63,288 nucleotides of DNA from Patescibacteria group bacterium. Lineage in GTDB: Bacteria > Patescibacteriota > Patescibacteriia > 2-02-FULL-49-11. The first letter of the stretch is position 1. The number at the start of each line of letters is the position of its first letter. This document shows positions 14,524-57,997 of the stretch, in pieces. The stretch spans positions 1-63,288 of the forward strand of contig JBFLWV010000058.1 of the NCBI GenBank assembly GCA_040757655.1, given 5' to 3'. The position numbers were made by a program, and so were the translations under genes. The notes below the pieces were generated by a model, which saw only the letters and a program-made list of their open reading frames with translations, had not been told where the DNA came from and did no database searches.

Positions 14524-16677
<2,154 letters not shown>

Positions 16678-16681
16678 TAGA

Positions 16682-17204: not shown

Positions 17205-17290
17205 AAATCCTAAATCCTAAATCCTAAATCCTAAACAAATCCAAAAATGGATCGTTTTAGAGTTTAGAGCTTAGAATTTAGAGTTTTGCA
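17205..17290. repeat. (CCTAAAT)4 mirrored by (TTTAGAG)n inverted repeat
   Basis: AATCCTAAATCCTAAATCCTAAATCCTAAAC...TTTTAGAGTTTAGAGCTTAGAATTTAGAGTTTTG. Lies between the adhesin and pilin genes. Confidence 0.8.
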
Positions 17291-17291
17291 T

Positions 17292-22198: not shown

Positions 22199-22295
22199 AG
22201 CTCAAAACTCAAATCTTAGATCTCAAATCCATAACTCAAAGCCCGATAGCTTTTCAGTTTTGCGTTGTGGTTTTGAGTTTTGAGATTTGACATTT
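22199..22295. repeat. CTCAAAA/CCCGATAGC palindromic element, copy 1
   Basis: AGCTCAAAACTCAAATCTTAGATCTCAAATCC...AGCCCGATAGCTTTTCAGTTTTGCGTTGTGGTTTTGAGTTTTGAGATTTGA. Confidence 0.8.
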
Positions 22296-26666: not shown

Positions 26667-26766
26667 AATCCAAAAGCCAAAATGCAAATATCAAAATGAA
26701 AATGAAAAATTTTTAAATTATAGTTTATCATTCTGGGTTTTGGATTTTGGATTTTACATTTGCATG
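26667..26766. repeat. CCAAAAN simple inverted repeat between DUF2723 and YfhO-like genes
   Basis: AATCCAAAAGCCAAAATGCAAATATCAAAATGAAAATG...TTCTGGGTTTTGGATTTTGGATTTTACATTTGCAT. Confidence 0.75.
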
Positions 26767-34802: not shown

Positions 34803-35756
34803 TCAATCGTCTCCAACTATTCCATATTCTTTATTCCTGATTCCTATCAACTCAAGTACTTTCTCGCAGATTTGTTCCGGATTCAGCCCGTGCTTCCCCC
34901 GCAGGTAGATTTGCGTGCCAATGGTATCTGGGAATGAATCGAGCACGCCGATGCGCTTGAAGCGAGGATGAAAAGGAGATTCTGCGAGCACTTCCGCGAC
35001 CGCACTCCCTAAACCCCCAAAGATGGAATGTTCTTCCAAGGTTACGATGGCAGGAAGGCGTTGTGCGATGTCACGCAGGAGTTTAACATCCAATGGTTTA
35101 ATGGTATGGATGCTCACCAGCATGGGAGATACTCCTTTGGCTTTGAGCAACTGTACGGTTTGTGAGGCCCCTTCCAGCATGGTGCTAGTGGCAATGAGTG
35201 TAACATCTGTCCCCTCCTCAATGATGATGCCCTTTCCTACCGTAAACACCGTACCAGGTTTATGTACCGTTGGCTCTCCCCGTTTTCCGAGACGCAGATA
35301 CGTGGGGCCGGGGAGGTTCGCAACAGCACGCACTGCTTCGCTTGTTTCCCATGGGTCGCCAGGACATATGACGGTCATGCGGGGAAGGGTGCGCATGATA
35401 CTAATATCTTCTATCGCATGGTGGGTCGCGCCGAAATAACTGTAGCTGTAACCGCCGCCCACACCAACAATATTCACGTTGAGATTTTGGTAACAGAGAT
35501 CATTTCTAATTTGTTCAAAACAGCGCATGGTGGCAAAGGGAATAATGGAATACACATAGACGATTTTCCCTTCAAGCGCGAGTCCTGCCGCAACCCCTAT
35601 CATGTTTGCTTCTGATACGCCGATGTTGAGGTAGCGGTCAGGATATTGTACCTTAAATTCATCAAATACGTTAAAGCCCAGGTCTCCTGTGATGACCATG
35701 ATATGGGGGTCTTCATGCACTAACTCCGTGAGAGTTTTTACGAAAGCATTACGCAT
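34803..35756 (-). CDS. transketolase C-terminal (pyrimidine-binding) subunit
   Basis: MRNAFVKTLTEL...GVSEANMIGVAAGLA...TLEEHSIFGGLGSAV. The start ATG at 35756 overlaps the upstream stop (ATGCGTAA). Confidence 0.85.
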   Translation of the reverse strand: MRNAFVKTLTELVHEDPHIMVITGDLGFNVFDEFKVQYPDRYLNIGVSEANMIGVAAGLALEGKIVYVYSIIPFATMRCFEQIRNDLCYQNLNVNIVGVGGGYSYSYFGATHHAIEDISIMRTLPRMTVICPGDPWETSEAVRAVANLPGPTYLRLGKRGEPTVHKPGTVFTVGKGIIIEEGTDVTLIATSTMLEGASQTVQLLKAKGVSPMLVSIHTIKPLDVKLLRDIAQRLPAIVTLEEHSIFGGLGSAVAEVLAESPFHPRFKRIGVLDSFPDTIGTQIYLRGKHGLNPEQICEKVLELIGIRNKEYGIVGDD

Positions 35757-36576
35757 ACCTTTGATAGAGTTCACATATCCCGTCCTCAACTTGTTGTGAT
35801 GTTGGGGTGTGATAATGCCATTCGAAATCATTTTCCATAAAGGAGACTCCTTTGCCTTTAATGGTATGGGCGAGGATGAGCGTGGGTTTCCCATATTGGA
35901 GAGGAAGATGACTGAAGGCAGTGATGAGCGCAGAGAAGTCGTGACCATCAAGTTCCCTCACCTCAAAACGGAAAGCGCGCCATTTGTCGGCGAGAGGCTC
36001 TAAGTCCATAACCTCCGCAATTCTGCCATAACTTTGGATTTTATTGTAATCAACAATGGCGATAAGGTTATCAAGCCCAAAATGCCCTGCGGAAAGGGCC
36101 GCTTCCCACGTAGATCCTTCGTCGCACTCCCCGTCAGAGAGCAGAACGAATACCCGTGATTGCGGCTGATCTTTTTTTAAGGCAAGCGCCATGCCGACGC
36201 CGATGGAGAGGCCGTGTCCCAGCGATCCAGTGGAAGCCTCAATGCCTGGCATAGCGGTGCGGGTCACATGACCAGCAAGTGCACTCCCATCTTTGATGTA
36301 GTGAGTAAGGATATCGGGTGAGCAAAAGCCACGCTTTGCGAGGGTGACATAGAGTGCGGCCACCCCATGCCCCTTGCTCATGATGAAGCGGTCGCGCTCG
36401 CTCCATGGTGGATTTTTAGGATCGATGCGAAGCGTGTGGAAATAGAGCGCGGTGAGAATGTCGATGCAAGAGAAGCACGATCCCACATGGCAGGATTTGG
36501 CGTCCGCAATTATACGCAAGGTCTCTTTTCTGATATCACGTGCGAGGTGAGATAGTTCCTGAAGAGTGAGCTTCAT
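35749..36576 (-). CDS. transketolase N-terminal (TPP-binding) subunit
   Basis: HVGSCFSCIDILTALYF...SKGHGVAALY...GSLGHGLSIGVGMA...LLSDGECDEGS. Confidence 0.85.
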   Translation of the reverse strand: MKLTLQELSHLARDIRKETLRIIADAKSCHVGSCFSCIDILTALYFHTLRIDPKNPPWSERDRFIMSKGHGVAALYVTLAKRGFCSPDILTHYIKDGSALAGHVTRTAMPGIEASTGSLGHGLSIGVGMALALKKDQPQSRVFVLLSDGECDEGSTWEAALSAGHFGLDNLIAIVDYNKIQSYGRIAEVMDLEPLADKWRAFRFEVRELDGHDFSALITAFSHLPLQYGKPTLILAHTIKGKGVSFMENDFEWHYHTPTSQQVEDGICELYQRYA

Positions 36577-37580
36577 ATTTTTTGCGCAATCAGATAAAAA
36601 TTTCCCGCAGGGATGGTGAGCTTTATTTCACTTAATTTAAGTATGGTGAGGAATTTAAGGACTTTCTTTTTAAGCGGTAAAGGAAGCGGGATGAGTTCTA
36701 TCCAGTGGCGAATAGTATGCGTGTTCCAAGCCGCACCCGTTTCTAACACGCGGAAATGGTGGAGAGAGAGAAGCTCAGTGATGGTTTTGATGCTAAAAAG
36801 AAATGGGTGTTCAATGTCAATGATGGGGGAAGATGCTCCCAAAGCGCGATTCGTGAACGCATCCCAATTGTGACTGATCATGAGGGCGATGCCTCCTGGT
36901 TTCAAATGTTCGTGAACTGTGTCGAGGCAGCGCGCAGGGTCGTCCATATGGTCAATAACTTGGAAAAGGCACGCATAGTCAAACGTGGACGGAGGAAAAC
37001 AATCGCAGTGATATAATCCTTGGATGATGTGTGGTTGCAATTCGGGATCGGCAGCTGCGATTGCGTGAGTGCTCGGCTCCACACCCTTCACTTCATTTAA
37101 TCCTATCCTGCGCGCTTCGGCAAGGAAGAATCCGTCACCGCAGCCGATTTCAAGAAGTGAACCCCACACCATGGCCTTAACGGCCGGAGGCCTTAAGGCC
37201 TGAATGCTCCGCGTTGGCATCGCACATTCCTCCTCGGATTTACACCCAGGGCTTCCTGTGGTGCGGGGTGATCCTTTCGCATTGCCAAAATGCAAAGCGC
37301 GGGCAAGATAATGGCGGTACGTGGCGATGAGACCGGGTTTATCCGCCTCATAAGTTATCCTGCTTCCTTCGTACAACCGAGCGAGTTCTGATGTCTCAAG
37401 GATAGGATTCGCGCGTACCAAACCGCATCGGGTGCAGCGTACCATCCGATACCTGATGCGGTCAGGGAGACGCCGTGCAGAGAACGTCGCAGTGGTTAAA
37501 TGTTCATGGGTAAAATTTGCTTCGTAGAGAAGTGCGTCGTATTGGTTTGTGTTGCATATCGCACAGATGGTGGTTCGCAT
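36573..37580 (-). CDS. class I SAM-dependent methyltransferase with N-terminal Cys4 zinc ribbon
   Basis: CAICNT...CTRCGLVRANP, then LLEIGCGDGFFL (motif I). Contains a palindrome-derived insert. Confidence 0.7.
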   Translation of the reverse strand: MRTTICAICNTNQYDALLYEANFTHEHLTTATFSARRLPDRIRYRMVRCTRCGLVRANPILETSELARLYEGSRITYEADKPGLIATYRHYLARALHFGNAKGSPRTTGSPGCKSEEECAMPTRSIQALRPPAVKAMVWGSLLEIGCGDGFFLAEARRIGLNEVKGVEPSTHAIAAADPELQPHIIQGLYHCDCFPPSTFDYACLFQVIDHMDDPARCLDTVHEHLKPGGIALMISHNWDAFTNRALGASSPIIDIEHPFLFSIKTITELLSLHHFRVLETGAAWNTHTIRHWIELIPLPLPLKKKVLKFLTILKLSEIKLTIPAGNFYLIAQKI

Positions 37581-37796: not shown

Positions 37797-40700
37797 ATGG
37801 ATTTTTCGAAAATTGAATTAGAAATATTGGAGTGGTGGCGGAAGAACAGGATATTCGAGAAATCACTCGCAAAACCCTCATCAAAGGGCGATTTTGTGTT
37901 TTATGAGGGGCCGCCGACCGCGAACGGCAAGCCCGGCATCCACCATGTCATTTCGCGCGCGTTCAAGGACATTATTCCGCGCTTCAAGACCATGCGCGGG
38001 TACCGGGTGGCGCGCAAGGGAGGATGGGATACGCACGGGCTCCCGGTTGAACTGGAAGTAGAAAAAACGCTGGGGTTGAAGAATAAGAAGGAGGTAGAGG
38101 CGTATGGCATTGAGGCGTTCAATAAAAAATGCCGCGAGTCAGTATGGAAGTACAAATCAGAGTGGGAAAAATTTACCGAGAGGATGGGGTTTTGGCTTGA
38201 TTTGGAACACGCCTACGTTACGTATGAGGGATCGTATGTAAATGGCCTTTGGGGGGTCATGAAGAAATTCTGGGAACACGGGCTTCTCTATGAGGGACAT
38301 AAAGTAGTGCCCCATTGTCCGCGTTGCGGCACGGCGCTGTCGAGCCATGAGTTGGCGCTGGGTTACCAATCCGTAAAAGATTTGTCACTAACGATTAAAT
38401 TCGAAATCCTAAATCCTAAATCCGAAATAAATTCAAAATTCCAAATTCCAAATGACGGAAAAGTGTTTATTTTATCTTGGACTACTACTCCTTGGACGCT
38501 GCCGGGGAATGTGGCGCTCGCAGTTGGCAATGACATTATGTATGTCATTGCAAGAAACAAGAAACAAGAAACAAGAAACAATGAATATGTGATAGTCGCG
38601 AAAGATCGGTTGAATATTTTGGAAGGTGAATACGAACCCATTGCAGAAGTGAAAGGGGATGACTTAGCCGGCTTGGAGTATGAACCATTATTCGATATCC
38701 CTTCGTTGAAAACAGATACCTCTTATAAAGTATACGCAGCTGATTTTGTAAGCACTACAGAAGGTACTGGCGTGGTACACACGGCAGTGATGTACGGGGA
38801 GGATGATTATCAGCTGGGAACAGAGGTAGGTCTCCCAAAAGTTCATACTGTGGCAGAAGATGGAACATTCAAGAGGCCCGAAATCCCAAATCTCAAATCC
38901 AAAATCCAAAATGATAGTAATATTATGGAAGAGCTTGAGGGGAGATTTGTGAAAGATTCGGAGACGGAAAAATTGATCATTGGCTACCTTGATGAGAAAA
39001 ATTTAATCTTAAAGAAAGAACTCTACGAACATGATTATCCTTTCTGCTGGCGGTGCAAAACTCCTTTGTTGTATTATGCTAAACACAGCTGGTTCGTGGC
39101 GATGTCGAAATTGCGGAATGAATTGATTGAAGCGAACAGTCACATTCATTGGGTTCCTGATTACATCAAGGAAGGGCGCTTCGGCGAGTGGTTGCGGGAG
39201 GTGAAGGATTGGGCGTTTTCCCGCGAACGTTATTGGGGCACACCACTCCCGATTTGGCGATGCCAAATCGGGAAATCCCAAATCCCAAATCCCAAATCCC
39301 AAATAATTTCAAATGACCAAATACAAAATCCAGAAACAGTTGGTGGATGTGGCAGAGTTGAAGTGATCGGCAGCGTGGCGGCACTGGTTCAGAAATCGAA
39401 ACTGAAAAACCGCTATATTTTCATGCGGCATGGGGAAGCGCGTTCAAATGTTGAGAACACCAATAATGCAATAGTATCCAATTCAGATAAATATCCACTC
39501 ACTGACAGAGGGAGGGAGGCAGTAAAGGCTTCTGCGCAACAGGTATGTTCAGAACATATTGATTTCTTAGTTGCCTCTGATTTTGTCCGTACACGTGAGA
39601 CCGCGGAGATTATTGCACGAGCAGCAGGGATAGAGATACGTTATGATGAGCGGTTGAGAGAGTTTCAGACTGGCCTAAAGTATGAAGAAAGGCCAGATCA
39701 AGCATTTGCATCGCTCTTTAGCAGTACTGCAGAACGATTTACGAGAAGAGAAGAAGGAGGAGAACTTTTGGGGGAAGCACTCATACGCATGCAAGCAGTG
39801 GTACGGGATTGTGAAGAACAGTATGAGGGGAAGATCATTGTCATCGTTTCACACGGCGATCCGCTCTGGGTGCTTACCTGGGCGCTTGCGGGAAGCCCGG
39901 GGACTTTAGATGATTTTCCGTATCCGCAGTTTGCGCAGCCCATCATGGTTGATCATGGGGTATTTTTAACAGACGAGCATGGAGAACTTGACCTGCATCG
40001 GCCGCGAGTGGATGAAGTTGAGTTTCCGTGCACGTGCGGCGGTACGATGCGGCGGGTCGCAGAAGTCGCGGATGTATGGTTTGACTCTGGCGCTATGCCG
40101 TTTGCACAATATCCGGAGAATATACAAGCGCTGATCAACGCAGATACAATTCACAATACTTCTGCGTCTATCCGCGTAGATAATCAGCGTAAATCCGCGT
40201 TGTGGCAGTTTCCGGCTGACTTCATCTCTGAAGCGATTGACCAGACGCGCGGATGGTTCTACACCTTGCTCGCAGTGGCGGTAGCGCTTCAGAAAGGTGC
40301 GCCGTATAAAAACGTCATCTGCCTCGGCCACGTCTTAGACGCGAAGGGCAAGAAGATGTCCAAATCCTTAGGGAACATCATTGTTCCGGAAGAAGTATTT
40401 GCGAAGTACGGTGCTGATGCGGTGCGTTGGTACCTCTATACTATGAATGATCCCGGGCTCCCTAAGCGGTTTAATGAGAAAGAGCTGGGGGAGGTAGTGA
40501 AGAAGTTTTTCATGATATTATGGAACGTTGTGTCGTTTCATGCATTGTATCCTCCACAACAAGCTTCCGGCTTACAACTTACGGCTTCACCCTCAAATGT
40601 GTTAGATCGTTGGATTTTGGCTCGTTTGAATCAATTGACGAAATTTGTCACTGAACGGCTCGACGCCTACGACATCACCCCGGCAGGGCGTGCGATTGAA

Positions 40701-41453
40701 GAATTCGTGACCGATCTTTCCACGTGGTACGTGCGGCGGAGCAGAGAGCGCATGAAAGCAGGGGATGAGGAGGGGAGGGCAACACTCAAGTATGTGTTAG
40801 CTGAATTGTCCAAATTAATTGCACCGTTTGCACCCTTTACCGCAGAAGCGCTGTGGCAGAAGCTTACCGCGTCTGGTTTGCGGCATAAGGCTTCAGTGGA
40901 ATCGGTGCATCTGGCTGAGTGGTCGGAGGCAGGAGAAATTGACGCAGAAGTGGTTTCCTTAATGGATATGGTGAGAAAGATTGTGGAAGCGGGGTTGGCG
41001 GCGCGCGCAGAAGCAAAGATGCCCATCAGACAGCCGTTGCAGAGCGCGAGAGTCGCTATACAGAGAACAATGAGCAATGAACAATATATCGAGTTGGTAA
41101 AGGATGAATTGAACGTGAAGGAGATTGTAGTTGGAAAAACAGAAGGGTCGATGAGTGTAGAGCTTGATACCAATTTGACGGAGGAGCTCAAGCTCGAAGG
41201 CATGAAGCGGGAGTTTGTGCGCGCAGTGAACAATTTGCGTAAACAGTCAAAGCTCACGATTAAAGATCGTGTACGATTAGAAATAGTAGATTGTATTGAG
41301 GTACAGAAGTTAATGAGAGAATATAAAAATGAACTTTTCCACGCTATATTAGCAAAGGAGATTACATCTGTAAAAACAGTTACTACTACCAGTCGGTCAA
41401 TAGTTGAGCTTGGTGGTGCAAAGGTCGAGTTTGGTATAGACGTGATACAATGA
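37797..41453 (+). CDS. ileS: isoleucyl-tRNA synthetase (type 2) with inserted histidine-phosphatase-like domain and several repeat-derived inserts
   Basis: PPTANGKPGIHH (HIGH), WTTTPWTLPGN, KMSKSLGN (KMSKS), DVWFDSG. 1218 aa. Insert with FMRHGEARSN...SHGD at 39405-39983. Confidence 0.95.
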   Translation: MDFSKIELEILEWWRKNRIFEKSLAKPSSKGDFVFYEGPPTANGKPGIHHVISRAFKDIIPRFKTMRGYRVARKGGWDTHGLPVELEVEKTLGLKNKKEVEAYGIEAFNKKCRESVWKYKSEWEKFTERMGFWLDLEHAYVTYEGSYVNGLWGVMKKFWEHGLLYEGHKVVPHCPRCGTALSSHELALGYQSVKDLSLTIKFEILNPKSEINSKFQIPNDGKVFILSWTTTPWTLPGNVALAVGNDIMYVIARNKKQETRNNEYVIVAKDRLNILEGEYEPIAEVKGDDLAGLEYEPLFDIPSLKTDTSYKVYAADFVSTTEGTGVVHTAVMYGEDDYQLGTEVGLPKVHTVAEDGTFKRPEIPNLKSKIQNDSNIMEELEGRFVKDSETEKLIIGYLDEKNLILKKELYEHDYPFCWRCKTPLLYYAKHSWFVAMSKLRNELIEANSHIHWVPDYIKEGRFGEWLREVKDWAFSRERYWGTPLPIWRCQIGKSQIPNPKSQIISNDQIQNPETVGGCGRVEVIGSVAALVQKSKLKNRYIFMRHGEARSNVENTNNAIVSNSDKYPLTDRGREAVKASAQQVCSEHIDFLVASDFVRTRETAEIIARAAGIEIRYDERLREFQTGLKYEERPDQAFASLFSSTAERFTRREEGGELLGEALIRMQAVVRDCEEQYEGKIIVIVSHGDPLWVLTWALAGSPGTLDDFPYPQFAQPIMVDHGVFLTDEHGELDLHRPRVDEVEFPCTCGGTMRRVAEVADVWFDSGAMPFAQYPENIQALINADTIHNTSASIRVDNQRKSALWQFPADFISEAIDQTRGWFYTLLAVAVALQKGAPYKNVICLGHVLDAKGKKMSKSLGNIIVPEEVFAKYGADAVRWYLYTMNDPGLPKRFNEKELGEVVKKFFMILWNVVSFHALYPPQQASGLQLTASPSNVLDRWILARLNQLTKFVTERLDAYDITPAGRAIEEFVTDLSTWYVRRSRERMKAGDEEGRATLKYVLAELSKLIAPFAPFTAEALWQKLTASGLRHKASVESVHLAEWSEAGEIDAEVVSLMDMVRKIVEAGLAARAEAKMPIRQPLQSARVAIQRTMSNEQYIELVKDELNVKEIVVGKTEGSMSVELDTNLTEELKLEGMKREFVRAVNNLRKQSKLTIKDRVRLEIVDCIEVQKLMREYKNELFHAILAKEITSVKTVTTTSRSIVELGGAKVEFGIDVIQ
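38403..38452 (+). repeat. in-frame heptamer-unit repeat in ileS (AAATCCT/TTCCAAA)
   Basis: GAAATCCTAAATCCTAAATCCGAAATAAATTCAAAATTCCAAATTCCAAAT encodes EILNPKSEINSKFQIPN. Confidence 0.9.
38551..38580 (+). repeat. in-frame (CAAGAAA)4 repeat in ileS
   Basis: CAAGAAACAAGAAACAAGAAACAAGAAACA encodes ARNKKQETRNN. Confidence 0.9.
38878..38912 (+). repeat. in-frame heptamer repeat in ileS (AAATCCN)
   Basis: CCGAAATCCCAAATCTCAAATCCAAAATCCAAAATG encodes PEIPNLKSKIQN. Confidence 0.9.
39264..39332 (+). repeat. in-frame heptamer repeat in ileS splitting the zinc-knuckle region
   Basis: CAAATCGGGAAATCCCAAATCCCAAATCCCAAATCCCAAATAATTTCAAATGACCAAATACAAAATCCAG encodes QIGKSQIPNPKSQIISNDQIQNP. Confidence 0.9.
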
Positions 41454-41860: not shown

Positions 41861-42054
41861 ACCATTTGATAGTACCCAAGGGATTTAATTCATCGTATCG
41901 GAATTTCAATGTTTGAAATTCCGACAGCACTAAAGCCTGCGGGCTTAGTGCTGGACTGCGTTAGGCAGCCAGCCAGATACGACCCAGCCTCTTTCGCAGA
42001 AAGGGGCTGCCCCGCAGGGGAGTTAGTGCCCGAAGGGCCTAACTGGCGCTATTA

Positions 42055-42076
42055 TGGCTCTTTTAAGCCATTTTTT
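42055..42076 (+). terminator. terminator-like hairpin plus T6, copy 1 of a duplicated ~26-nt sequence
   Basis: TGGCTCTTTTAAGCCATTTTTTGTT. Confidence 0.5.
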
Positions 42077-42091
42077 GTTTGGCTACCCAAA

Positions 42092-42119
42092 TTGACAAAG
42101 TATGCAAAGTATATATACT
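42092..42119 (+). promoter_or_regulatory. sigma70-like promoter of the antitoxin/PIN operon
   Basis: TTGACA-N16-TATACT. The ATG at 42128 is only 8 nt downstream of the -10 and has no SD. Confidence 0.6.
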
Positions 42120-42127
42120 ATACACAT

Positions 42128-42445
42128 ATGCCTACCATAAAGACCATTTCTTCTCTTGAACTTCGTAAACGGTTTGGTGAATTAACCGATGAGGTGTTGT
42201 ACTCCAATGTGTGGCTTAAAGTGACAAAGAACAGGAAGAAAGCGTTTCTCATGAAACCTTGGGAAGAGGGGGCGCATTATTTACACAAGAGCATTTCGTC
42301 CGAAATAGAAGCAGCGAAGAAACGCAACATGGAGGAGTTTCTTAAAAAGCTTGATCGGTTGCGAAAGCAGGCTGCAAAAAAAAGTAAACTTATTAATGGC
42401 ATGAGCTGGTCTGAGTTTATCCAGTATGACCGACATCACCACTAA
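42128..42445 (+). CDS. Phd/YefM-like antitoxin
   Basis: MPTIKTISSLELRKRFGELTDEV...KKAFLMKPWEE. Overlaps the downstream PIN gene. ATG at 42128 chosen; the upstream part of ORF 41909..42445 is hairpin-rich non-coding DNA. Confidence 0.55.
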   Translation: MPTIKTISSLELRKRFGELTDEVLYSNVWLKVTKNRKKAFLMKPWEEGAHYLHKSISSEIEAAKKRNMEEFLKKLDRLRKQAAKKSKLINGMSWSEFIQYDRHHH

Positions 42446-42872
42446 ACCTCCACATCTTTGTCTCGTGGTTGATGCTTCAGTAGGGGTTAAGTGGTTGAAC
42501 GAGAAATCCGAGCAAGGAGTTGAAGTAGCACGTACCATTGCCGCACGCGCCAAGGGAGACGAAATTGTCCTTATCGTCCCTGATATTTTTCTGTATGAGA
42601 TAGGAAATGTATTGGTGAATGATAGGGGGTTGACCAACAATGATATTGAAGAACGGCTTGACTTTTTATCTGAATTTGCTCTTCAGATAGTACACATTGA
42701 TCAGTCTCTCCTTATCGCGATTACGCGATTGGCAAGAGCGCATCAAGTGACGTTCTATGATGCGGCGTATCTCGCCATTGCCGAGATGTATCGTGCTGAT
42801 CTTGTTACGGAAGATAAGGATCTTTTGCATACAGGCCTTCCCTATGTAAAGTCACTTATGCGATATCCATAA
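42426..42872 (+). CDS. vapC: PIN-domain toxin
   Basis: LVVDASVGVKW...PDIFLYEIGNVL...TFYDAAYLAIA...LVTEDKDL carries the acidic PIN residues. Confidence 0.8.
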   Translation: MTDITTKPPHLCLVVDASVGVKWLNEKSEQGVEVARTIAARAKGDEIVLIVPDIFLYEIGNVLVNDRGLTNNDIEERLDFLSEFALQIVHIDQSLLIAITRLARAHQVTFYDAAYLAIAEMYRADLVTEDKDLLHTGLPYVKSLMRYP

Positions 42873-42918: not shown

Positions 42919-42965
42919 GTTGTTAACTGTTGAATCCTAGGTTAACAAGTGGTATCATTTTTTAT

Positions 42966-43232
42966 ATGCGTACTACTCATAATGATAATTTTATTTCAAC
43001 CTCTGAATTGGCCAAACTTTTGGGCTTGAGCCGTGTGGCAGTGTTTAAGAAGATAAAAAAAGGAGAAATACCCGCGGAGAAAAAGGGACGAAATTTTATA
43101 ATCAAGAAAACAGATCTCCCCGAATTTTTTGGCAGAGGGTTAAGTGAACGGCAAAAAAGTGAGGTGGAGAAGGCGGTTGAAAAGATAGTGAAGGAGTATG
43201 GCGAAACGCTTCGGTTATTGGGACAGGAATAA
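42966..43232 (+). CDS. excisionase/MerR-type HTH protein (putative antitoxin of Doc)
   Basis: ISTSELAKLLGLSRVAVFKKIKKGEIPAEKKGRNFIIKK is the HTH_17 pattern. Lies immediately upstream of doc. Confidence 0.6.
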   Translation: MRTTHNDNFISTSELAKLLGLSRVAVFKKIKKGEIPAEKKGRNFIIKKTDLPEFFGRGLSERQKSEVEKAVEKIVKEYGETLRLLGQE

Positions 43233-43236
43233 AGTT

Positions 43237-43659
43237 ATGAAAGGTATATCTTTGGTCGAGGTGGAATACATAGCACACCGCCTGGCACAACAATTTCTTA
43301 AATGGAATGAGCCGATTCCCGAGTTTGGTTCACGTTTTCCGCATGTCCTCGAGTCGTGTCTTGCCATGCCATTCCAGACCTTCGCGCAGCGCAAGCTCTA
43401 TCATGGATTAATCGGTAAGGCAGCCGTTCTTTTTTATCTGCTCATCAAAAATCACCCTTTCCAAAATGGCAATAAACGCGTTGCCATGACGACCCTTCTC
43501 TATTTCCTTTATAAAAATAACAAATGGCTGCGTGTGGATGAGAGGGAAGTCTATCTATTTGCAAAATGGGTTGCGGAGAGTAATGCCAAGGTAAAGGATG
43601 AGACAATACGGGCGATTGAAAAGCTTCTTACTACCTACATCGTTTCTCTTAATCCTTGA
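43237..43659 (+). CDS. doc: Fic/Doc family toxin (death-on-curing type)
   Basis: HPFQNGNKRVAMT matches the Doc variant of the Fic motif HxFx(D/N)GNKR. Confidence 0.75.
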   Translation: MKGISLVEVEYIAHRLAQQFLKWNEPIPEFGSRFPHVLESCLAMPFQTFAQRKLYHGLIGKAAVLFYLLIKNHPFQNGNKRVAMTTLLYFLYKNNKWLRVDEREVYLFAKWVAESNAKVKDETIRAIEKLLTTYIVSLNP

Positions 43660-43666
43660 TTGAGGT

Positions 43667-44302
43667 ATGTACGCCACCACGCCCGCGATTATCCTCTCAA
43701 GCGCGCCCTATCGCGAGTGGGGGAGATCGTTTTTCCTCCTTACCGCGCAGAAAGGGCTGATACATGCCCATGCGATTGGGGTCGCACGGATGCGGTCGAA
43801 GTTGGGCCCAAAACTCACGCCCTACCACCTTCTCTCCCTTACCCTTGTGAGCAGGTTCACGGATCGCATTATTGGCGTGGACGTTATCGAGACTTTCTCA
43901 AACCTTTGGCGCGATGCGCGCCGGCAGGGATATGCCGCATGGGGTCTGGCTGCCATACAAGGCAGTTTAAAACCAGGATTAGCAGATGTGCGGATTTTTG
44001 ATCTTTGTCTTGAATATTTGCGTACCCTCAATACCCTTTCCGTGTTTGACAAAACATTTCCCTCCTTGCGCCTTGCATTTGTGGTAAAGCTTCTTCATTT
44101 CTTGGGGTATCGCCTCAAGGAAGGTGAGAACGCACCACTGCGGTCAGGAGTGATTCCCTTTCTCGGAGATGGCTCATTGCGAGAGGTTGCGGGTGCGATG
44201 AGCCCGGTACAAAAGATTGTTCACGAACGATCAGAGGAGATGGTGAGAGAAATTATGGGAGAACGTATGGTTCCGCTTGCACGTTATCTCACGGCCCTAT
44301 GA
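43667..44302 (+). CDS. recO: DNA repair protein RecO
   Basis: N-terminal OB pattern (AIILSSAPYREWGRSFFLLTAQKGLIHAHA), size and layout are RecO-like. GAGG lies 5 nt upstream of the ATG. Confidence 0.65.
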   Translation: MYATTPAIILSSAPYREWGRSFFLLTAQKGLIHAHAIGVARMRSKLGPKLTPYHLLSLTLVSRFTDRIIGVDVIETFSNLWRDARRQGYAAWGLAAIQGSLKPGLADVRIFDLCLEYLRTLNTLSVFDKTFPSLRLAFVVKLLHFLGYRLKEGENAPLRSGVIPFLGDGSLREVAGAMSPVQKIVHERSEEMVREIMGERMVPLARYLTAL

Positions 44303-46199: not shown

Positions 46200-46574
46200 A
46201 TGAGACAGATACCTCTTCCGTTTCAAGTGATGAAATTAGTAATCATCGATACGGTCCTTGATATCATCATGTGGCCGGTGTGGTGGTTTACGCAAGGGTT
46301 ATGGACCACCTTGCGATGGGTGGGGCGCGGGATCGCGAATGAGTGGTTTGATTTTGGGCTTGGGCCGTGGTTGAAGAGCATGTTCACGCCCATGTATGCA
46401 GATTACTCGCTTGCCGGCCGCGCCATCAGTTTCGTCGCACGCGTTATCATCCTTGCATTCCGTCTCCTCCAATTTTCACTGTGGGTGGTGTTTTATGTGG
46501 TGGGCGTAGCGCTTTACCTCGGGCTTCCTGGTGCGGCCGTATATCTATTAGTTACCTTTTATCATACATCTTAA
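46200..46574 (+). CDS. hypothetical polytopic membrane protein
   Basis: 124 aa with 3-4 hydrophobic segments. Starts 2 nt after the upstream stop. Confidence 0.5.
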   Translation: MRQIPLPFQVMKLVIIDTVLDIIMWPVWWFTQGLWTTLRWVGRGIANEWFDFGLGPWLKSMFTPMYADYSLAGRAISFVARVIILAFRLLQFSLWVVFYVVGVALYLGLPGAAVYLLVTFYHTS

Positions 46575-46683
46575 CTCAAAACGCAAAACTCAAATCTCAA
46601 AACCACAACGCAAAATTAAAAACTATACGGCTTTGGGATTTGAGATATGGATTTGAGTTTTGAGATTTGACCTTTGAGTTTTT
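46575..46683. repeat. CTCAAAA/CCCGATAGC-family element, copy 3 (inverted, diverged centre)
   Basis: CTCAAAACGCAAAACTCAAATCTCAAAACCACAACGCAAAAT...CGGCTTTGGGATTTGAGAT...TTTGAGTTTTGAGATTTGA. Confidence 0.7.
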
Positions 46684-54548: not shown

Positions 54549-55583
54549 ATGGTTATCCCGGTAAACACTCTCTCAGACATCTCCTATCGTTCTATATTCC
54601 GCGTCCTCGGAGTCCTTGCGGTGATGGGGTTTCTTTATGTAGTGCGCGATATTATCGCCCTTCTTTTTGTTGCGCTGGTATTCTCAGCCGCTATCGATCC
54701 ATTCGTTGATTCTTTCGCAAAGCGGCAGATACCACGCGCGCTCGGCATCCTTATCGTCTATGTGCTCGTACTTGGCATCTTTGGTATTACGCTTACGCTC
54801 CTCATCCCCCCTTTGGTCACTGAAGTGCGGCAACTTGCGGAGAGTTTCCCCTACTATTACGACAAGCTCTCCATGGGCGTCAACTACCTTCGGGATGCGT
54901 CCGGCGGCGTAGCCAGCAGCGAGAATGTACAACAGATAGTGGGTTCGTTTGAAAAGGCGCTTACTACTGTCACCGCGGGGGTCTTCACCACCATCTCCTC
55001 CATTTTTGGTGGGGTGGTGTCCTTCTTCATCATCCTCGTCCTTACGTTCTATATGGTGGTGGATGAAGATGGTATTAAGAGATTTTTACAGGTCGTCACG
55101 CCCGAGAACGCCCATCAGGGGGTGATAGCACTCACCATAAAAATTCAGGACAAGATTGGGTTGTGGCTCCGTGGACAGCTTATACTCATGCTGATTATTG
55201 CATTACTCACCTTTATCGGGCTTACCCTCATCGGTGTGCCCTACGCCTTAGTGCTCGCGCTTGTCGCAGGCGTCACGGAGATTATTCCTTACGCGGGGCC
55301 CGTGATCGGCGCCATACCCGCCATCTTCATTGCGTTTACTGTCTCACCCTCTATGGGTCTCTGGACAGTATTCTGGTATATCCTTGTGCAGCAAGCAGAG
55401 AATCACCTGATCGTACCCAAGGTGATGCAGAAGACCACGGGTTTAAATCCCATCATCGTGATTTTGGCAGTACTCATCGGCGCCAGACTTTCAGGTATCT
55501 TAGGCGCACTCCTTGCGGTACCGATTGCATCTGCGATTGAAGTGATTATTCATGAGCACTTCGATCACAAAACGACCGTATAA
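54549..55583 (+). CDS. AI-2E family transporter (PerM/UPF0118)
   Basis: ~8 TM with a conserved C-terminal region (VTEIIPYAGPVIGAIPA...ENHLIVPKVM). Confidence 0.8.
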   Translation: MVIPVNTLSDISYRSIFRVLGVLAVMGFLYVVRDIIALLFVALVFSAAIDPFVDSFAKRQIPRALGILIVYVLVLGIFGITLTLLIPPLVTEVRQLAESFPYYYDKLSMGVNYLRDASGGVASSENVQQIVGSFEKALTTVTAGVFTTISSIFGGVVSFFIILVLTFYMVVDEDGIKRFLQVVTPENAHQGVIALTIKIQDKIGLWLRGQLILMLIIALLTFIGLTLIGVPYALVLALVAGVTEIIPYAGPVIGAIPAIFIAFTVSPSMGLWTVFWYILVQQAENHLIVPKVMQKTTGLNPIIVILAVLIGARLSGILGALLAVPIASAIEVIIHEHFDHKTTV

Positions 55584-55682
55584 CTCATATCTCAAATGTC
55601 AAAACTCAAAACCATAACTCAAATCGTAAAGCTATCGGGTTTTAAGATCTGGCTTTGGGATTTGCGTTTTGAGTTTTGAGAT
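55584..55682. repeat. CTCAAAA/CCCGATAGC-family element, copy 4 (inverted)
   Basis: ...TCAAAACTCAAAACCATAACTCAAATCGTAAAGCTATCGGGTTTTAAGATC...GCGTTTTGAGTTTTGAGAT. Confidence 0.8.
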
Positions 55683-57883: not shown

Positions 57884-57997
57884 TCCAAAATCCAAAATCC
57901 AAAATCCAAAATGAAGGTGTCCCGACGCGGTCGGGACGATTCCCCAACATTTTGGATTATGATCTATCATTTTGATTTTTGGTGTTTGGATTTTACA
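57884..57997. repeat. composite element: (CCAAAAT)4 - ATGAAGG - GTCCCGAC hairpin - (ATTTTGG)n, copy 2
   Basis: TCCAAAATCCAAAATCCAAAATCCAAAATGAAGGT-GTCCCGACgcgGTCGGGAC-...CATTTTGGATT...TTTTGATTTTTGGTGTTTGGATTTT. Confidence 0.8.

What the first reader, a model, noticed from the sequence alone, without database searches (positions are those of the whole stretch)
39264..39983. Isoleucyl-tRNA synthetase with an embedded histidine-phosphatase (PGAM-like) domain
The ileS ORF is 1218 aa and uninterrupted. Canonical IleRS has only a short linker (zinc knuckle, IGS..EL) between the conserved GTPLPIWRC block (W-R-C at 39255-39263) and the conserved LDLHRPRVDE...DVWFDSG block (from ~39984). Here about 240 codons sit in that position. 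After a repeat-derived stretch and the native-looking GCGRVEVIGSVAALV, codons 39405-39983 read KNRYIFMRHGEARSN...FVRTRETAEII...KIIVIVSHGDPLW. These are the RHGxxxxN catalytic motif and the distal SHG histidine motif, about 140 residues apart, which is the order and spacing of the histidine phosphatase superfamily branch 1 (cofactor-dependent PGM / CobC / SixA type). There are no intein-type junction residues and no frame break. I know of no described aminoacyl-tRNA synthetase with a phosphatase inserted here. A phosphatase fused to an enzyme that handles ATP, Ile-AMP and tRNA 3' ends could act on a nucleotide or tRNA-end substrate or on a phosphorylated regulator; that is speculation.
Basis: partly seen in the sequence, partly recalled or inferred. 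Interest (0 to 1): 0.82.

Follow-up and report, generated by a model that had tools for sequence, protein, structure and literature searches.

The report
IleRS with nested histidine phosphatase domain
This candidate-phyla-radiation (CPR) bacterium's isoleucyl-tRNA synthetase carries an intact phosphatase enzyme spliced into a loop of its catalytic core; hundreds of related genomes share this design, no paper I could search describes it, and its purpose is unknown.

Summary
ORF 37797-41453 (+) encodes a 1218-aa type-2 IleRS. A roughly 200-aa histidine phosphatase domain (Pfam His_Phos_1, E = 1.5e-30) is nested in the CP3/zinc-knuckle loop at the stated coordinates.

It is not an assembly artefact. 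All 120 best homologs, from independent Patescibacteria/CPR assemblies, share the architecture. Catalytic positions R544, H545, R598 and H686 are invariant in all 120; E622 is kept in 119 and N551 in 117. The IleRS synthetic and editing motifs are also intact. AlphaFold models the insert as an autonomous PhoE/PspA/GpgP-like fold (pLDDT 94).

New findings:
- The same phosphatase subfamily also exists as a separate ~195-aa gene between argS and an insert-less ileS (7 of 10 sampled).
- It occurs as 2 or 4 tandem copies at the same IleRS site.
- Rarely, it is fused to the C-terminus of ArgRS or of TsaC.

All partners are tRNA-centred enzymes that convert ATP to an adenylate plus PPi. The substrate is unknown.

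My best reading is an active small-molecule phosphomonoesterase, captured from the neighbouring gene and kept physically coupled to IleRS. A neutral "neighbour capture" with no mechanistic link is a serious rival.

I found no description of this in the literature. I class it as a new variant of a known kind (aaRS with an accessory catalytic domain). Interest 0.66.

The parts
37797..41453 (+). ileS: type-2 isoleucyl-tRNA synthetase, 1218 aa, with a nested phosphatase domain
   Evidence: ORF. TIGR00392 844.5 bits (cutoff 621.4) and the DUF5915 C-terminal domain. Foldseek best hits are P. megaterium IleRS2 8C8W/8C8V (TMt 0.79) and T. thermophilus 1ILE (TMt 0.89).
37935..37946 (+). Class I signature motif in its non-canonical G-I-H-H form (aa 47-50; GxHH instead of HxGH)
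   Evidence: Sequence PTANGKPGIHHV. G47, H49 and H50 are invariant in 46-70 CPR homologs. G/AxHH is a known functional IleRS2 variant that gives mupirocin hyper-resistance (PMC10485003).
38478..38504 (+). CP1 editing-domain motif W228-TTTPWTLP
   Evidence: W228, T229-T231, P232, W233, T234 and L235 are invariant in homologs, as are H328 and D337.
39255..39263 (+). W-R-C: end of the Rossmann strand and first zinc-knuckle cysteine (C489), start of CP3
   Evidence: W487 in 119/120 and C489 in 117/120 homologs. The CP3 definition comes from PMC7191050.
39264..39344 (+). Lineage-specific loop (aa 490-516) derived from a heptanucleotide repeat, lying between knuckle cysteines C489 and C518; not part of the phosphatase
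   Evidence: (AAATCCC)x4.6, 100% match, at 39273-39304. Gapped in 113-115 of 120 homologs. pLDDT below 50 at aa 493-514.
39345..39386 (+). Native CP3 knuckle N-terminal arm (GGCGRVEVIGSVAAL, aa 517-530), including C518
   Evidence: C518 in 114/120 and G525-S526 conserved. The same 'xGSxxEL' arm is present in insert-less IleRS2.
39387..39983 (+). Histidine phosphatase (His_Phos_1, branch 1) domain, aa 531-729, nested in CP3
   Evidence: Pfam PF00300 at aa 541-701, E 1.5e-30. pLDDT 87-97 in the full-length model. The stand-alone model has pLDDT 93.8 and pTM 0.91. Foldseek best hits are GpgP-type hydrolases 6S2Q/4PZ9, PspA 4IJ6 and PhoE 1H2E/1EBB, with TMt up to 0.80.
39426..39449 (+). RHGxxxxN catalytic motif (R544, H545 nucleophile, G546, N551)
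   Evidence: R544 and H545 in 120/120, G546 in 114/120, N551 in 117/120. H545 aligns with catalytic His9 of PspA 4IJ5 (4IJ6 is the H9A mutant).
39588..39590 (+). R598, the second phosphate-binding arginine (S-x-x-x-R-T-x-x-T-A motif)
   Evidence: R598 and S594 in 120/120; T602 in 115/120.
39660..39662 (+). E622, the likely general acid/base (RLRE motif)
   Evidence: 119/120. It aligns with the conserved Glu of PspA.
39852..39854 (+). H686, the distal catalytic histidine (SHG motif)
   Evidence: 120/120.
39984..40067 (+). Native CP3 knuckle C-terminal arm (ELDLHRPRVDEVEFPCTCGGTMRRVAEV, aa 730-757), with C745 and C747
   Evidence: D732, H734, P736 and D739 are invariant or nearly so. C745 in 117/120, C747 in 118/120, R753 in 119/120.
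40071..40091 (+). D-V-W-F-D-S-G: resumption of the Rossmann fold (aa 759-765)
   Evidence: D759, W761, D763, S764 and G765 in 120/120.
40353..40367 (+). KMSKS loop (aa 853-857)
   Evidence: K853, M854, S855 and K856 are invariant.
43667..44302 (+). recO, a syntenic marker showing that this ileS sits at the same locus as the insert-less ileS of relatives
   Evidence: RecO_N/RecO_C hits. recO follows ileS in L081, L087 and L089 (unfused) and in L002, L004, L005 and L009 (fused).

Best explanation
What it is. This is the organism's housekeeping type-2 isoleucyl-tRNA synthetase. Its CP3 subdomain (the zinc knuckle between the two halves of the second Rossmann-fold repeat) hosts an autonomous, catalytically competent branch-1 histidine phosphatase domain. 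The protein is therefore bifunctional.

Shown:
- The IleRS synthetic site (GxHH, KMSKS, DVWFDSG), the CP1 editing site and the knuckle cysteines are intact.
- The insert folds independently as a ~200-aa PhoE/PspA/GpgP-type phosphatase.
- Its full catalytic set is under strong purifying selection in every copy examined: R544 and H545 (nucleophile), N551, R598, E622 (acid/base) and H686.
- The domain belongs to a CPR-specific subfamily. In other lineages this subfamily is a separate gene sitting between argS and an insert-less ileS in the same syntenic block (argS-hisPhos-ileS-x-recO). In fused lineages the argS/ileS slot is empty.

Inferred:
- The domain was captured from (or exchanged with) the neighbouring gene.
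- It works as a phosphomonoesterase through a phospho-His545 intermediate.
- It acts on a small phosphorylated molecule rather than on a long stretch of RNA.
- It is kept physically and stoichiometrically coupled to IleRS because its activity serves ATP-consuming, adenylate-forming tRNA enzymes. The same subfamily is also fused to ArgRS and to TsaC.

My preferred but unproven substrate class is a by-product or side-product common to these enzymes (PPi or a nucleotide phosphate). Its removal next to the active site would pull amino-acid activation forward.
For: - Architecture and significance.
- Conservation of the architecture in all 120 best homologs from independent CPR assemblies, 45-66% identical.
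- Catalytic residues of the insert across the 120: R544, H545, R598, E656 and H686 in all 120; E622 in 119; R664 in 118; N551 in 117.
- IleRS motifs invariant.
- Confident autonomous fold.
- Nearest structures are small-molecule phosphatases.
- The whole model matches IleRS2.
- The insert co-diverges with the core (Mantel r = 0.64, 0 of 999 permutations).
- Free-standing orthologs are as similar to the insert as other inserts are.
- 7 of 10 sampled free-standing orthologs are encoded next to ileS, six of them immediately upstream.
- Fused loci keep argS-ileS-recO with no gene between argS and ileS.
- Tandem arrays of 2 or 4 domains at the same site, each copy keeping the catalytic set.
- Independent fusions to ArgRS (3 clusters) and TsaC (4 clusters), in tRNA-enzyme neighbourhoods.
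- Domain net charge is not conserved, and the window's domain is acidic.
Against: - No substrate has been tested.
- No branch-1 histidine phosphatase is known, to my knowledge, to hydrolyse PPi.
- Synteny may be inherited rather than functional: recO is equally syntenic with ileS without an obvious functional link.
- CPR proteins appear prone to fusion. TsaC is fused to MGMT, TruB, NUDIX, 2H-phosphoesterase and GNAT domains, so fusion is weak evidence of shared function.
- Some CPR IleRS (L010, L011) have neither an insert nor a linked phosphatase gene.
- I had no coordinates, so I could not measure how far the phosphatase active site lies from the aminoacylation site or from the tRNA path.
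- The NJ tree interleaves fused and free forms and is unsupported, so the number and direction of events are unresolved.
Confidence: 0.55

Rival explanations
1. Neutral neighbour capture. The phosphatase is an ordinary housekeeping metabolic phosphatase (for example a sugar-phosphate or phospho-amino-acid phosphatase) with no mechanistic link to aminoacylation. It happened to lie upstream of ileS, and a local duplication or rearrangement dropped a copy into the structurally permissive CP3 loop. The original copy was then lost, so the nested copy is now retained only because it is the cell's sole copy (constructive neutral evolution in small-genome symbionts).
For: - The nearest characterised relatives are metabolic phosphatases: PspA, PhoE, GpgP, CobC and TIGAR.
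- CP3 is the most structurally variable IleRS subdomain (PMC7191050).
- In this very gene, repeat-derived junk is tolerated in the same loop.
- recO is equally syntenic without a functional link.
- CPR TsaC shows many apparently unrelated fusions, such as MGMT.
- The insert evolves faster than the core: 36% against 60% mean pairwise identity.
- More distant free-standing members are encoded away from ileS.
Against: - The subfamily is repeatedly attached to three different tRNA-centred adenylate-forming enzymes: IleRS, ArgRS and TsaC.
- The domain is amplified to 2-4 active copies inside IleRS.
- The nested arrangement has been retained across deep CPR divergence.
- Adjacent-gene fusions normally give end-to-end fusions, not a precise in-loop nesting.
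Confidence: 0.3
2. tRNA-end healing. The domain removes a 2'- or 3'-phosphate (left after nuclease or toxin damage, or after cyclic-phosphate opening) from the tRNA 3' terminus so that it can be aminoacylated. It is positioned on CP3 beside the entry to the synthetic site.
For: - All fusion partners and many neighbours are tRNA enzymes: IleRS, ArgRS and TsaC as partners; CCA-adding enzyme, TGT and TruD as neighbours.
- In other CPR lineages TsaC is fused to a 2H/LigT-type phosphoesterase, which would produce the phosphomonoester such a phosphatase would remove.
- From my own knowledge, not tested here: the HD domain of E. coli CCA-adding enzyme has 2',3'-cyclic phosphodiesterase and phosphatase activities, a precedent for end-healing built into a tRNA enzyme.
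Against: - No histidine-phosphatase-fold enzyme is known, to my knowledge, to act on polynucleotide ends.
- Domain net charge is not conserved, and the window's domain is acidic (pI 5.0, net -9).
- The CCA-adding enzyme next to the TsaC fusion already carries an HD domain.
- Restriction to IleRS (and rarely ArgRS) would heal only one or two tRNA species.
- Tandem arrays are not explained.
Confidence: 0.1
3. Non-catalytic or regulatory module. The domain acts as a structural or docking element, or as a phosphoprotein (pHis/pSer) phosphatase regulating IleRS or a partner, rather than as a metabolite phosphatase.
For: The superfamily includes protein phosphatases (SixA, PGAM5, Sts-1; my own knowledge). 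There is a weak SixA hit (E 5.7e-4 for the insert, below cutoff).
Against: - A purely structural role is contradicted by the invariant catalytic residues in every copy.
- The SixA score of 19.8 bits is far below its cutoff of 74.5.
- CPR genomes encode few signalling systems (my own knowledge).
- No kinase partner is seen in any of the contexts.
Confidence: 0.04
4. Artefact. The architecture comes from a chimeric assembly, a mis-joined contig or a gene-calling fusion.
For: None found.
Against: - The same nested architecture appears in all 120 best hits from NCBI, JGI, ENA and Logan assemblies, on contigs up to 775 kb, and in nine GTDB species genomes.
- GC content and skew are continuous across the junctions.
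- The insert co-diverges with the core.
- The CP3 arms on both sides are native.
Confidence: 0.01

Closest known systems
Type-2 (eukaryote-like, mupirocin-resistant) IleRS, e.g. P. megaterium IleRS2 (PDB 8C8V/8C8W) and T. thermophilus IleRS (1ILE)
   Same: Same domain order: Rossmann fold, CP core, CP1 editing, CP2, CP3 with a 4-Cys zinc knuckle, anticodon-binding domain and DUF5915-type C-terminal domains. TIGR00392 scores above its cutoff. Foldseek TMt is 0.79-0.89. It carries the known GxHH signature-motif variant.
   Different: The CP3 segment is about 250-270 aa instead of 53-61 aa, because a complete phosphatase domain is nested in the knuckle. In this genome there is also a repeat-derived disordered loop between the first two knuckle cysteines.
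Short branch-1 histidine phosphatases: PhoE (1EBB/1H2E), phosphoserine phosphatase PspA (4IJ5), glucosyl-3-phosphoglycerate phosphatase GpgP (4PZ9/6S2Q), CobC (6E4B)
   Same: Same fold (TM 0.68-0.80), the same ~200-aa size, and the same catalytic constellation: RHG...N, R, E and a distal H.
   Different: Only 20-26% identical. It scores below the equivalog cutoff of every named family. It is not a stand-alone protein but is nested in (or encoded next to) an aaRS. It has a subfamily-specific 'KNxYxxxRHG' N-terminus and an 'SHGxPxW' motif. The substrate is unknown.
IleRS with an N-acetyltransferase domain (NCBIfam NF040702, ileS_w_GNAT)
   Same: Another curated case of an IleRS carrying an extra catalytic domain. 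This shows that accessory enzymatic domains in IleRS are a recognised kind.
   Different: The accessory domain and the family are different. The window protein scores 289 bits against a cutoff of 1999. I did not examine where the GNAT domain sits.
Bifunctional RNase H / acid phosphatase (Rv2228c type; NCBIfam NF005567)
   Same: A nucleic-acid enzyme fused to a CobC-like branch-1 histidine phosphatase. The insert matches the phosphatase half (E 3.5e-16, profile positions 173-343 of 378).
   Different: That is an end-to-end fusion, not a nested one. The partner is RNase H, not an aaRS. The score of 59.5 bits is below the cutoff of 326. The functional link in that fusion is also unresolved (my own knowledge).
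Nested catalytic domains of class Ia aaRS (CP1 editing domain in IleRS/ValRS/LeuRS)
   Same: A complete, independently folding hydrolytic domain inserted into a loop of the Rossmann-fold catalytic domain, joined by two antiparallel arms.
   Different: CP1 is universal, acts on mischarged tRNA and is a different fold. Here the insertion is in CP3, is restricted to CPR, and is a phosphatase fold that also exists as a separate neighbouring gene.

Membership tests
Histidine phosphatase superfamily, branch 1 (Pfam PF00300 His_Phos_1) | Score above the Pfam gathering threshold | tested here: met
   106.8 bits (110.6 for the insert alone) against a cutoff of 21.7; E 1.5e-30 and 1e-31.
Histidine phosphatase superfamily, branch 1 (Pfam PF00300 His_Phos_1) | N-terminal RHG motif with the nucleophilic His at the end of strand beta-1 | tested here: met
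   R544-H545-G546 follows strand E535-544. R and H are 120/120 conserved. H545 aligns with catalytic His9 of PspA.
Histidine phosphatase superfamily, branch 1 (Pfam PF00300 His_Phos_1) | Second Arg, a Glu acid/base and a distal His completing the phosphate pocket | tested here: met
   R598 in 120/120, E622 in 119/120 and H686 in 120/120. The same set is present in every copy of the tandem arrays.
Histidine phosphatase superfamily, branch 1 (Pfam PF00300 His_Phos_1) | Alpha/beta PGAM-like fold | tested here: met
   The domain model has pLDDT 93.8 and pTM 0.91. Foldseek probability is 1.00 and TM 0.68-0.80 to GpgP, PspA and PhoE.
Histidine phosphatase superfamily, branch 1 (Pfam PF00300 His_Phos_1) | Phosphatase or mutase activity through a phosphohistidine intermediate | not testable with these tools
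   Requires an enzyme assay.
Cofactor-dependent phosphoglycerate mutase (dPGM: GpmA, archaeal dPGM, GpmB) | Score above the NCBIfam equivalog cutoff | tested here: not met
   dPGM_arch 79.3 bits against 225; GpmB 69.7 against 261; PRK01112 19.5 against 320.
Cofactor-dependent phosphoglycerate mutase (dPGM: GpmA, archaeal dPGM, GpmB) | Mutase-specific substrate residues (ER-x-YG after the catalytic Glu; HGN after the distal His) and a ~250-aa length with a C-terminal tail (features recalled from my own knowledge) | tested here: not met
   After E622 the sequence is F/I/M-x-x-G, with no R or Y. After H686 the consensus is G/E-D/Y-P, with no conserved Asn. The domain is about 190-200 aa and ends in the CP3 arm.
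Named short phosphatases (PspA, CobC, SixA, MSMEG_4193, acid phosphatase PRK13462) | Score above the NCBIfam cutoff | tested here: not met
   PspA 44.1 against 350; CobC TIGR03162 50.9 against 162.9; SixA 19.8 against 74.5; MSMEG_4193 44.2 against 203.85; PRK13462 16.6 against 226.
Isoleucyl-tRNA synthetase, type 2 | ileS equivalog model above cutoff | tested here: met
   TIGR00392 844.5 bits against 621.4.
Isoleucyl-tRNA synthetase, type 2 | Class I signature motifs (HxGH or its IleRS2 variant G/AxHH; KMSKS) | tested here: met
   G47-I48-H49-H50 and K853-M-S-K-S857 are invariant in homologs. G/AxHH was shown to be functional in IleRS2 (PMC10485003).
Isoleucyl-tRNA synthetase, type 2 | CP1 editing domain with a Thr-rich motif and conserved His/Asp | tested here: met
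   W228-TTTPWTLP, H328 and D337 are invariant.
Isoleucyl-tRNA synthetase, type 2 | Type-2 C-terminal organisation (no C-terminal zinc-binding domain; ARD/DUF5915-type domains) | tested here: met
   Anticodon_1 plus DUF5915. The best structural matches are IleRS2 rather than IleRS1: TMt 0.79 with rmsd 5.4 for 8C8W, against 0.77 with rmsd 9.5 for 8C9F.
Isoleucyl-tRNA synthetase, type 2 | Aminoacylation of tRNA-Ile; sole ileS of the genome | not testable with these tools
   Only 63 kb of the genome is available. Synteny with insert-less ileS loci argues for orthology.
Intein / mobile insertion | Hint domain, Cys/Ser/Thr at both splice junctions, terminal His-Asn, optional homing endonuclease | tested here: not met
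   No Hint or LAGLIDADG Pfam hit. The junction residues are ...AALV|QKSK... and ...EHG|ELDL....
IleRS with GNAT domain (NF040702) | Score above the cutoff of 1999 bits | tested here: not met
   289.4 bits, covering the N-terminal IleRS part only.

The most novel reading that the evidence does not exclude
The phosphatase is a dedicated, previously unrecognised accessory activity of the translation apparatus in the Candidate Phyla Radiation. It would be a partner enzyme of adenylate-forming tRNA enzymes (IleRS, ArgRS, TsaC) that acts at or beside their active sites. It might hydrolyse PPi or a nucleotide or adenylate-derived phosphate to drive or proofread activation, or it might heal phosphorylated tRNA 3' ends. 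In most lineages it would have been hard-wired into IleRS as a second nested hydrolytic domain, analogous in logic to CP1.
Probability: 0.3. Interest if true: 0.85.

Novelty: new variant of a known kind. Interest (0 to 1): 0.66.

Why it matters
Aminoacyl-tRNA synthetases are among the most conserved and best-studied enzymes, and new catalytic domains nested in their cores are rare. Here a whole bacterial radiation with minimal genomes keeps an active phosphatase inside, or immediately beside, its only IleRS. Some lineages even multiply it to 2-4 copies.

If the coupling is functional, it points to an unknown requirement of aminoacylation or tRNA metabolism in CPR bacteria. Candidates are product removal, proofreading or tRNA repair. 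The requirement is directly testable with a single recombinant protein and an H545A mutant.

If the coupling is neutral, it is a clean and datable example of neighbour-gene capture into a permissive loop of an essential enzyme, with all three states (absent, adjacent, nested) still extant at one syntenic locus.

Practically, the insert explains why NCBI labels many of these proteins only 'class I tRNA ligase family protein'. It is also a convenient sequence marker for large CPR clades.

Tried and rejected
- Chimeric assembly: rejected.
- Intein or mobile element: rejected, with no Hint or endonuclease hits and no splice junction residues.
- Pseudo-enzyme: rejected, because the catalytic residues are invariant.
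- dPGM mutase, SixA, CobC or PspA membership: all below their cutoffs, and the mutase residues are absent.
I sampled 10 members individually instead.
- My first motif regex for the knuckle length was wrong and was corrected. About half of the non-CPR loci still did not parse and were left out.
- NJ tree of 185 domain sequences: fused and free forms interleave. The tree has no support values, so I draw no conclusion on the number or direction of insertion events. I note only that first and second copies of the tandem arrays fall into two separate clades.
- Net-charge test for RNA binding: no conserved basic character, which is only weak evidence.
- Search for a free-standing copy near the insert-less CPR ileS in L010 and L011, or elsewhere in the window: none found.
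- tRNA genes in the window: none.
- Literature: nine searches and five papers read found no description of the architecture. The library lacks most subscription-journal papers, so absence is not proof.
- Spatial relation of the phosphatase pocket to the synthetic site or the tRNA: not obtainable, because the structure tool returns no coordinates.


Full report
OBSERVATION

The window contains one uninterrupted ORF, 37797..41453 on the + strand, encoding 1218 aa. Pfam splits tRNA-synt_1 into two stretches. Between them, at aa 541-701, it places His_Phos_1 (PF00300) with E = 1.5e-30 and 106.8 bits against a cutoff of 21.7. NCBIfam's ileS equivalog TIGR00392 scores 844.5 bits against a cutoff of 621.4.

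WRC lies at 39255-39263, the extra segment at 39264-39983 (aa 490-729), K537 at 39405, and the two catalytic histidines (H545, H686) are 141 residues apart. GC content and skew run smoothly across the junctions.

The segment has three parts:
- A lineage-specific loop (aa 490-516) encoded by an (AAATCCC)n heptamer array. It sits between the first two knuckle cysteines, is missing from 113-115 of 120 homologs, and is modelled as disordered.
- The native N-terminal arm of the knuckle (aa 517-530).
- The phosphatase domain (aa 531-729), followed by the native C-terminal arm 'ELDLHRPRVDEVEFPCTCGG...DVWFDSG'.

In the literature's nomenclature the site is the CP3 subdomain. CP3 connects CP2 to the second half of the Rossmann fold, carries a zinc motif in T. 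thermophilus IleRS, and has a different topology in each solved IleRS (PMC7191050).

IS IT REAL AND HOW WIDESPREAD?

A search of 5.8 billion proteins returned the window protein itself (NCBI: 'MAG: class I tRNA ligase family protein [Patescibacteria group bacterium]', on a 63,288-nt contig). All 120 best hits are 1109-1270 aa long, 45-66% identical, and all have PF00133 and PF00300 precomputed. They come from NCBI, JGI, ENA and Logan assemblies, on contigs up to 775 kb. Where named, they are Uhrbacteria (closest, 65-66%), Komeilibacteria, Brennerbacteria, Nomurabacteria or Parcubacteria.

A scan of GTDB species genomes sampled both CPR and non-CPR type-2 IleRS.
- I measured the segment between 'WG.P.P' and 'D.WFDSG'. 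It is 53-61 aa in 36 of 38 parsed non-CPR loci, with outliers of 74 and 80 aa.
- It is 241-256 aa in nine CPR loci: Yanofskybacteria, Spechtbacterales, Minisyncoccia, Paceibacteria and 'Patescibacteria group'.
- In the CPR loci the insertion is always after the 'xGSxxEL' arm and before 'ELDLHRPYxD'.
- Two close relatives, L010 (named only 'bacterium') and L011 ('Patescibacteria group bacterium'), have a normal short knuckle.

An assembly chimera is therefore excluded, but the insert is not universal in CPR.

IS EACH HALF FUNCTIONAL?

In the 120-sequence alignment the phosphatase catalytic set is essentially invariant:

| Residue | Conserved in |
|---|---|
| R544 | 120/120 |
| H545 | 120/120 |
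| G546 | 114/120 |
| N551 | 117/120 |
| R598 | 120/120 |
| E622 | 119/120 |
| E656 | 120/120 |
| R664 | 118/120 |
| H686 | 120/120 |

H545 aligns with His9 of H. thermophilus PspA, the residue mutated in PDB 4IJ6.

The IleRS motifs are also invariant: the signature motif (here GIHH), KMSKS, DVWFDSG, the CP1 editing motif WTTTPWTLP with H328 and D337, and the four knuckle cysteines.

AlphaFold2 with a 70-sequence alignment gives mean pLDDT 87.3 and pTM 0.82 for aa 1-1198. The insert scores 87-97, and the only disordered stretches are short lineage-specific loops. Foldseek matches the whole model to IleRS2 structures: 8C8W/8C8V at TMt 0.79 and 1ILE at TMt 0.89.

The insert with its arms, modelled alone, gives pLDDT 93.8 and pTM 0.91. 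Its best structural matches are ~200-aa small-molecule phosphatases: mycobacterial GpgP-type hydrolases 6S2Q/4PZ9, PspA 4IJ6, PhoE 1H2E/1EBB (TMt 0.76-0.80), CobC and TIGAR. By sequence the nearest solved structures are PspA (E 7.7e-10) and PhoE (1.5e-8).

The insert scores below the cutoff of every NCBIfam equivalog (dPGM_arch 79 against 225; GpmB 70 against 261; CobC 51 against 163; PspA 44 against 350; SixA 20 against 74.5). It also lacks the mutase-type residues after E622 and H686 (the motif definitions are from my own knowledge). It is therefore a member of the superfamily but of no characterised family.

ORIGIN: THE SAME DOMAIN IS A NEIGHBOURING GENE ELSEWHERE

I ran an exhaustive HMMER search of 1.84 billion cluster representatives with the insert alone. 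It found 5958 proteins at E <= 1e-3 and 556 at E <= 1e-10.

Of the best 150:
- 87 are IleRS fusions: 79 with one domain, 7 with two, and one truncated protein (P0122) with four.
- 58 are proteins of 260 aa or fewer. Most start with Met and share the fusion's 'KNxYxxxRHG' N-terminus, although a few are probably fragments.
- 5 are other architectures.

I looked up the genomic context of ten free-standing representatives spread down the ranking.
- Seven lie next to ileS. Six are immediately upstream on the same strand, with gaps of 1-120 bp: P0132/L081, P0134/L082, P0124/L084-85, P0166/L086, P0185/L087-88 and P0202/L089-90. One is tail-to-tail (P0149/L083).
- Wherever the knuckle region is on the contig (L081, L083, L087, L088, L089), that ileS is insert-less. 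In L082, L084, L085, L086 and L090 the contig ends before it.
- argS lies upstream in six of the seven: immediately adjacent in four (L083, L086, L087/88, L089/90) and further upstream with other genes between in L081 and L082. Where the sequence continues, a small ORF and recO follow.
- The three lowest-ranked representatives (P0236, P0248, P0264) are not next to ileS.

In fused GTDB loci, argS abuts the fused ileS directly. In L005 argS ends at 7961 and the ileS ORF opens at 7962. recO follows. The window keeps ileS...recO (43667-44302) but has no argS.

One syntenic block thus exists in three states:
- argS-hisPhos-ileS-x-recO
- argS-ileS[hisPhos]-recO
- ileS-recO with no linked phosphatase (L011, where argS lies about 2.9 kb upstream)

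Pairwise identities of insert and core are correlated (Mantel r = 0.64, 0 of 999 permutations; the insert averages 36% against 60% for the core). This is consistent with long co-descent. An unsupported NJ tree interleaves fused and free forms, so I do not claim a direction or a number of events.

FURTHER ARCHITECTURES

A Peribacteria IleRS (L048, a 1472-aa ORF) has two tandem His_Phos domains at the same site. Other representatives have two, and P0122 has four. Every copy aligned keeps the catalytic constellation R-H-N-R-E-E-R-H, apart from one copy with N551 replaced by Ala, one with Q-Q at the E656/R664 positions, and two copies truncated before the RHG motif.

Two of the 'other' hits are fusions to different enzymes:
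- P0244 is a complete ArgRS with the phosphatase at its C-terminus. Three clusters exist, two of them only 49% identical to each other. In L094 argS::hisPhos is followed directly by recO, and ileS has moved elsewhere.
- P0189 is TsaC/Sua5 (threonylcarbamoyl-AMP synthase) with the phosphatase at its C-terminus. Four clusters exist at 52-65% identity, one of them an NCBI Patescibacteria MAG. Its neighbours are a CCA-adding enzyme with an HD domain, TGT, a queuosine-salvage gene and TruD.

All three partners are tRNA-centred enzymes that make an acyl-adenylate and release PPi.

MECHANISM: WHAT IS SHOWN AND WHAT IS INFERRED

Shown: a bifunctional polypeptide with two intact catalytic units, the phosphatase under purifying selection in every copy, and a genetic linkage to ileS that takes several forms.

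Inferred: catalysis proceeds by the superfamily's mechanism. R544, R598 and H686 hold the phosphate, H545 is phosphorylated, and E622 acts as acid/base.

For the substrate I have only indirect evidence:
- Homology and fold point to small phosphomonoesters.
- The domain's net charge ranges from -14 to +20 across the family, and the window's copy is acidic (pI 5.0). There is therefore no conserved RNA-binding surface.
- The recurring partners share ATP, acyl-AMP, AMP and PPi.

I therefore favour, at modest confidence, a small phosphorylated by-product or nucleotide handled beside the active site. PPi removal is the most attractive option chemically, because both amino-acid activation and TC-AMP synthesis are reversible and PPi-limited (my own knowledge). 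However, no branch-1 member is known to me to hydrolyse PPi.

The main rival is neutral neighbour capture into a permissive loop:
- recO is equally syntenic without an obvious functional link.
- CP3 tolerates even repeat-derived junk in this same gene.
- CPR TsaC is fused to many unrelated partners, including MGMT, TruB, NUDIX, 2H phosphoesterase and GNAT.

tRNA-end healing is a further possibility. The tRNA-enzyme company supports it; the lack of precedent for this fold on RNA ends and the charge data argue against it.

COMPARISON WITH WHAT IS KNOWN, AND NOVELTY

aaRS with accessory or nested domains are a known kind: CP1 editing domains, and NCBIfam even curates 'ileS_w_GNAT'. Fusions of a nucleic-acid enzyme with a CobC-like phosphatase also exist (RNase H/acid phosphatase, NF005567).

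I found no description of a phosphatase in any aaRS:
- Full-text searches for 'isoleucyl-tRNA synthetase' with 'histidine phosphatase' or 'phosphatase domain', 'tRNA synthetase' with His_Phos_1, IleRS with 'phosphoglycerate mutase', and aaRS with CPR or Patescibacteria returned nothing relevant.
- AARS Online, the 2023 IleRS2 signature-motif paper and a 2026 preprint on IleRS domain evolution do not mention it.

The proteins are in public databases with both Pfam domains detectable, but they are named only generically. I classify the finding as a new variant of a known kind. The genetic picture (absent, adjacent, nested or multiplied at one locus, plus ArgRS and TsaC fusions) appears to be new.

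VERDICT

The feature is real, ancient within CPR, catalytically intact and undescribed in the searchable literature. Its biochemical role is open but directly testable. Interest 0.66.

Noticed in passing
window 38396-38453, 38551-38581, 38881-38912, 39273-39339 (inside ileS); intergenic examples 7876-7973, 13566-13682, 16579-16683, 17205-17294, 22201-22290, 26667-26761, 46573-46682, 55582-55680, 57882-57912: The window is littered with period-7 tandem arrays of 4-7 copies (units AAATCCC, AACTCAA/TTTGAGT, TTGGAAA, AATGCAA, CAAGAAA and others). TRF lists about 35, and AAATCCC-like 20-mers occur 17 times against 0.05 expected. Many intergenic arrays come as inverted pairs about 50 nt apart. Four arrays lie in frame inside ileS (aa 200-219, 252-262, 362-372, 493-515), each at a low-confidence surface loop. 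For the one I checked (aa 490-516), the stretch is absent from 113-115 of 120 homologs. Their origin and function (regulatory element, slippage-prone repeat, or mobile micro-element) are unexplained.
   Followed up: partly
window 37935-37946 (aa 47-50): The class I 'HIGH' motif reads G-I-H-H. This is the non-canonical G/AxHH variant shown to give IleRS2 mupirocin hyper-resistance (PMC10485003). G47, H49 and H50 are invariant in all 46-70 CPR homologs aligned, so the whole fused clade carries it.
   Followed up: partly
L048 7878-12293 (Candidatus Peribacteria); proteins P0122, P0137, P0150, P0161, P0167, P0179, P0215: IleRS with two (P0122: four) tandem histidine phosphatase domains at the same CP3 site, every copy catalytically intact. 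In a rough NJ tree the first and second copies fall into two separate clades, which suggests one old duplication.
   Followed up: partly
L094/L095 7001-9070 (P0244); also P0388, P0389: ArgRS with the same phosphatase subfamily fused to its C-terminus. Here argS::hisPhos is followed directly by recO, and ileS is not in the block.
   Followed up: partly
L096 1964-3292 and L097 974-2302 (P0271); also P0189, P0270, P0272: TsaC/Sua5 (t6A pathway) with the same phosphatase at its C-terminus, in a neighbourhood of tRNA enzymes: CCA-adding enzyme with HD domain, TGT, Q_salvage and TruD.
   Followed up: partly
proteins P0273-P0381: CPR TsaC is a promiscuous fusion hub. Most close homologs carry a C-terminal PF01035 (O6-methylguanine-DNA methyltransferase DNA-binding) domain. 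Others are fused to TruB, 2H/LigT-like phosphoesterase (PF13563/PF07823), NUDIX, GNAT or Pur_DNA_glyco.
   Followed up: no
window 41909-42445 + 42426-42872; 42930-43232 + 43198-43659: Two toxin-antitoxin-like cassettes sit between ileS and recO. The first is a 178-aa ORF with no Pfam hit overlapping a PIN-domain gene. The second is an HTH_17 gene overlapping a Fic/DOC gene. In relatives the spacer between ileS and recO holds only one small ORF.
   Followed up: partly
L083 2682-5609 (minus strand): The ileS next to free-standing P0149 is called as two genes (412 + 554 aa), although tblastn aligns it continuously. This could be a recoded stop (a UGA-reassigning CPR lineage), a frameshift or a sequencing error.
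   Followed up: no
window 40149-40193 (aa 785-799): Another lineage-specific, low-confidence insertion (…NADTIHNTSASIRVDNQRK…) lies just after DVWFDSG. pLDDT is below 50.
   Followed up: no
window 34803-36576 (minus strand): Transketolase is encoded as two separate overlapping ORFs: the N-terminal TPP-binding part (35749-36576) and the pyrimidine-binding plus C-terminal part (34803-35951). A class I SAM methyltransferase (36573-37580) lies next to it.
   Followed up: no
window 1-63288: ARAGORN finds no tRNA or tmRNA gene in 63 kb.
   Followed up: no
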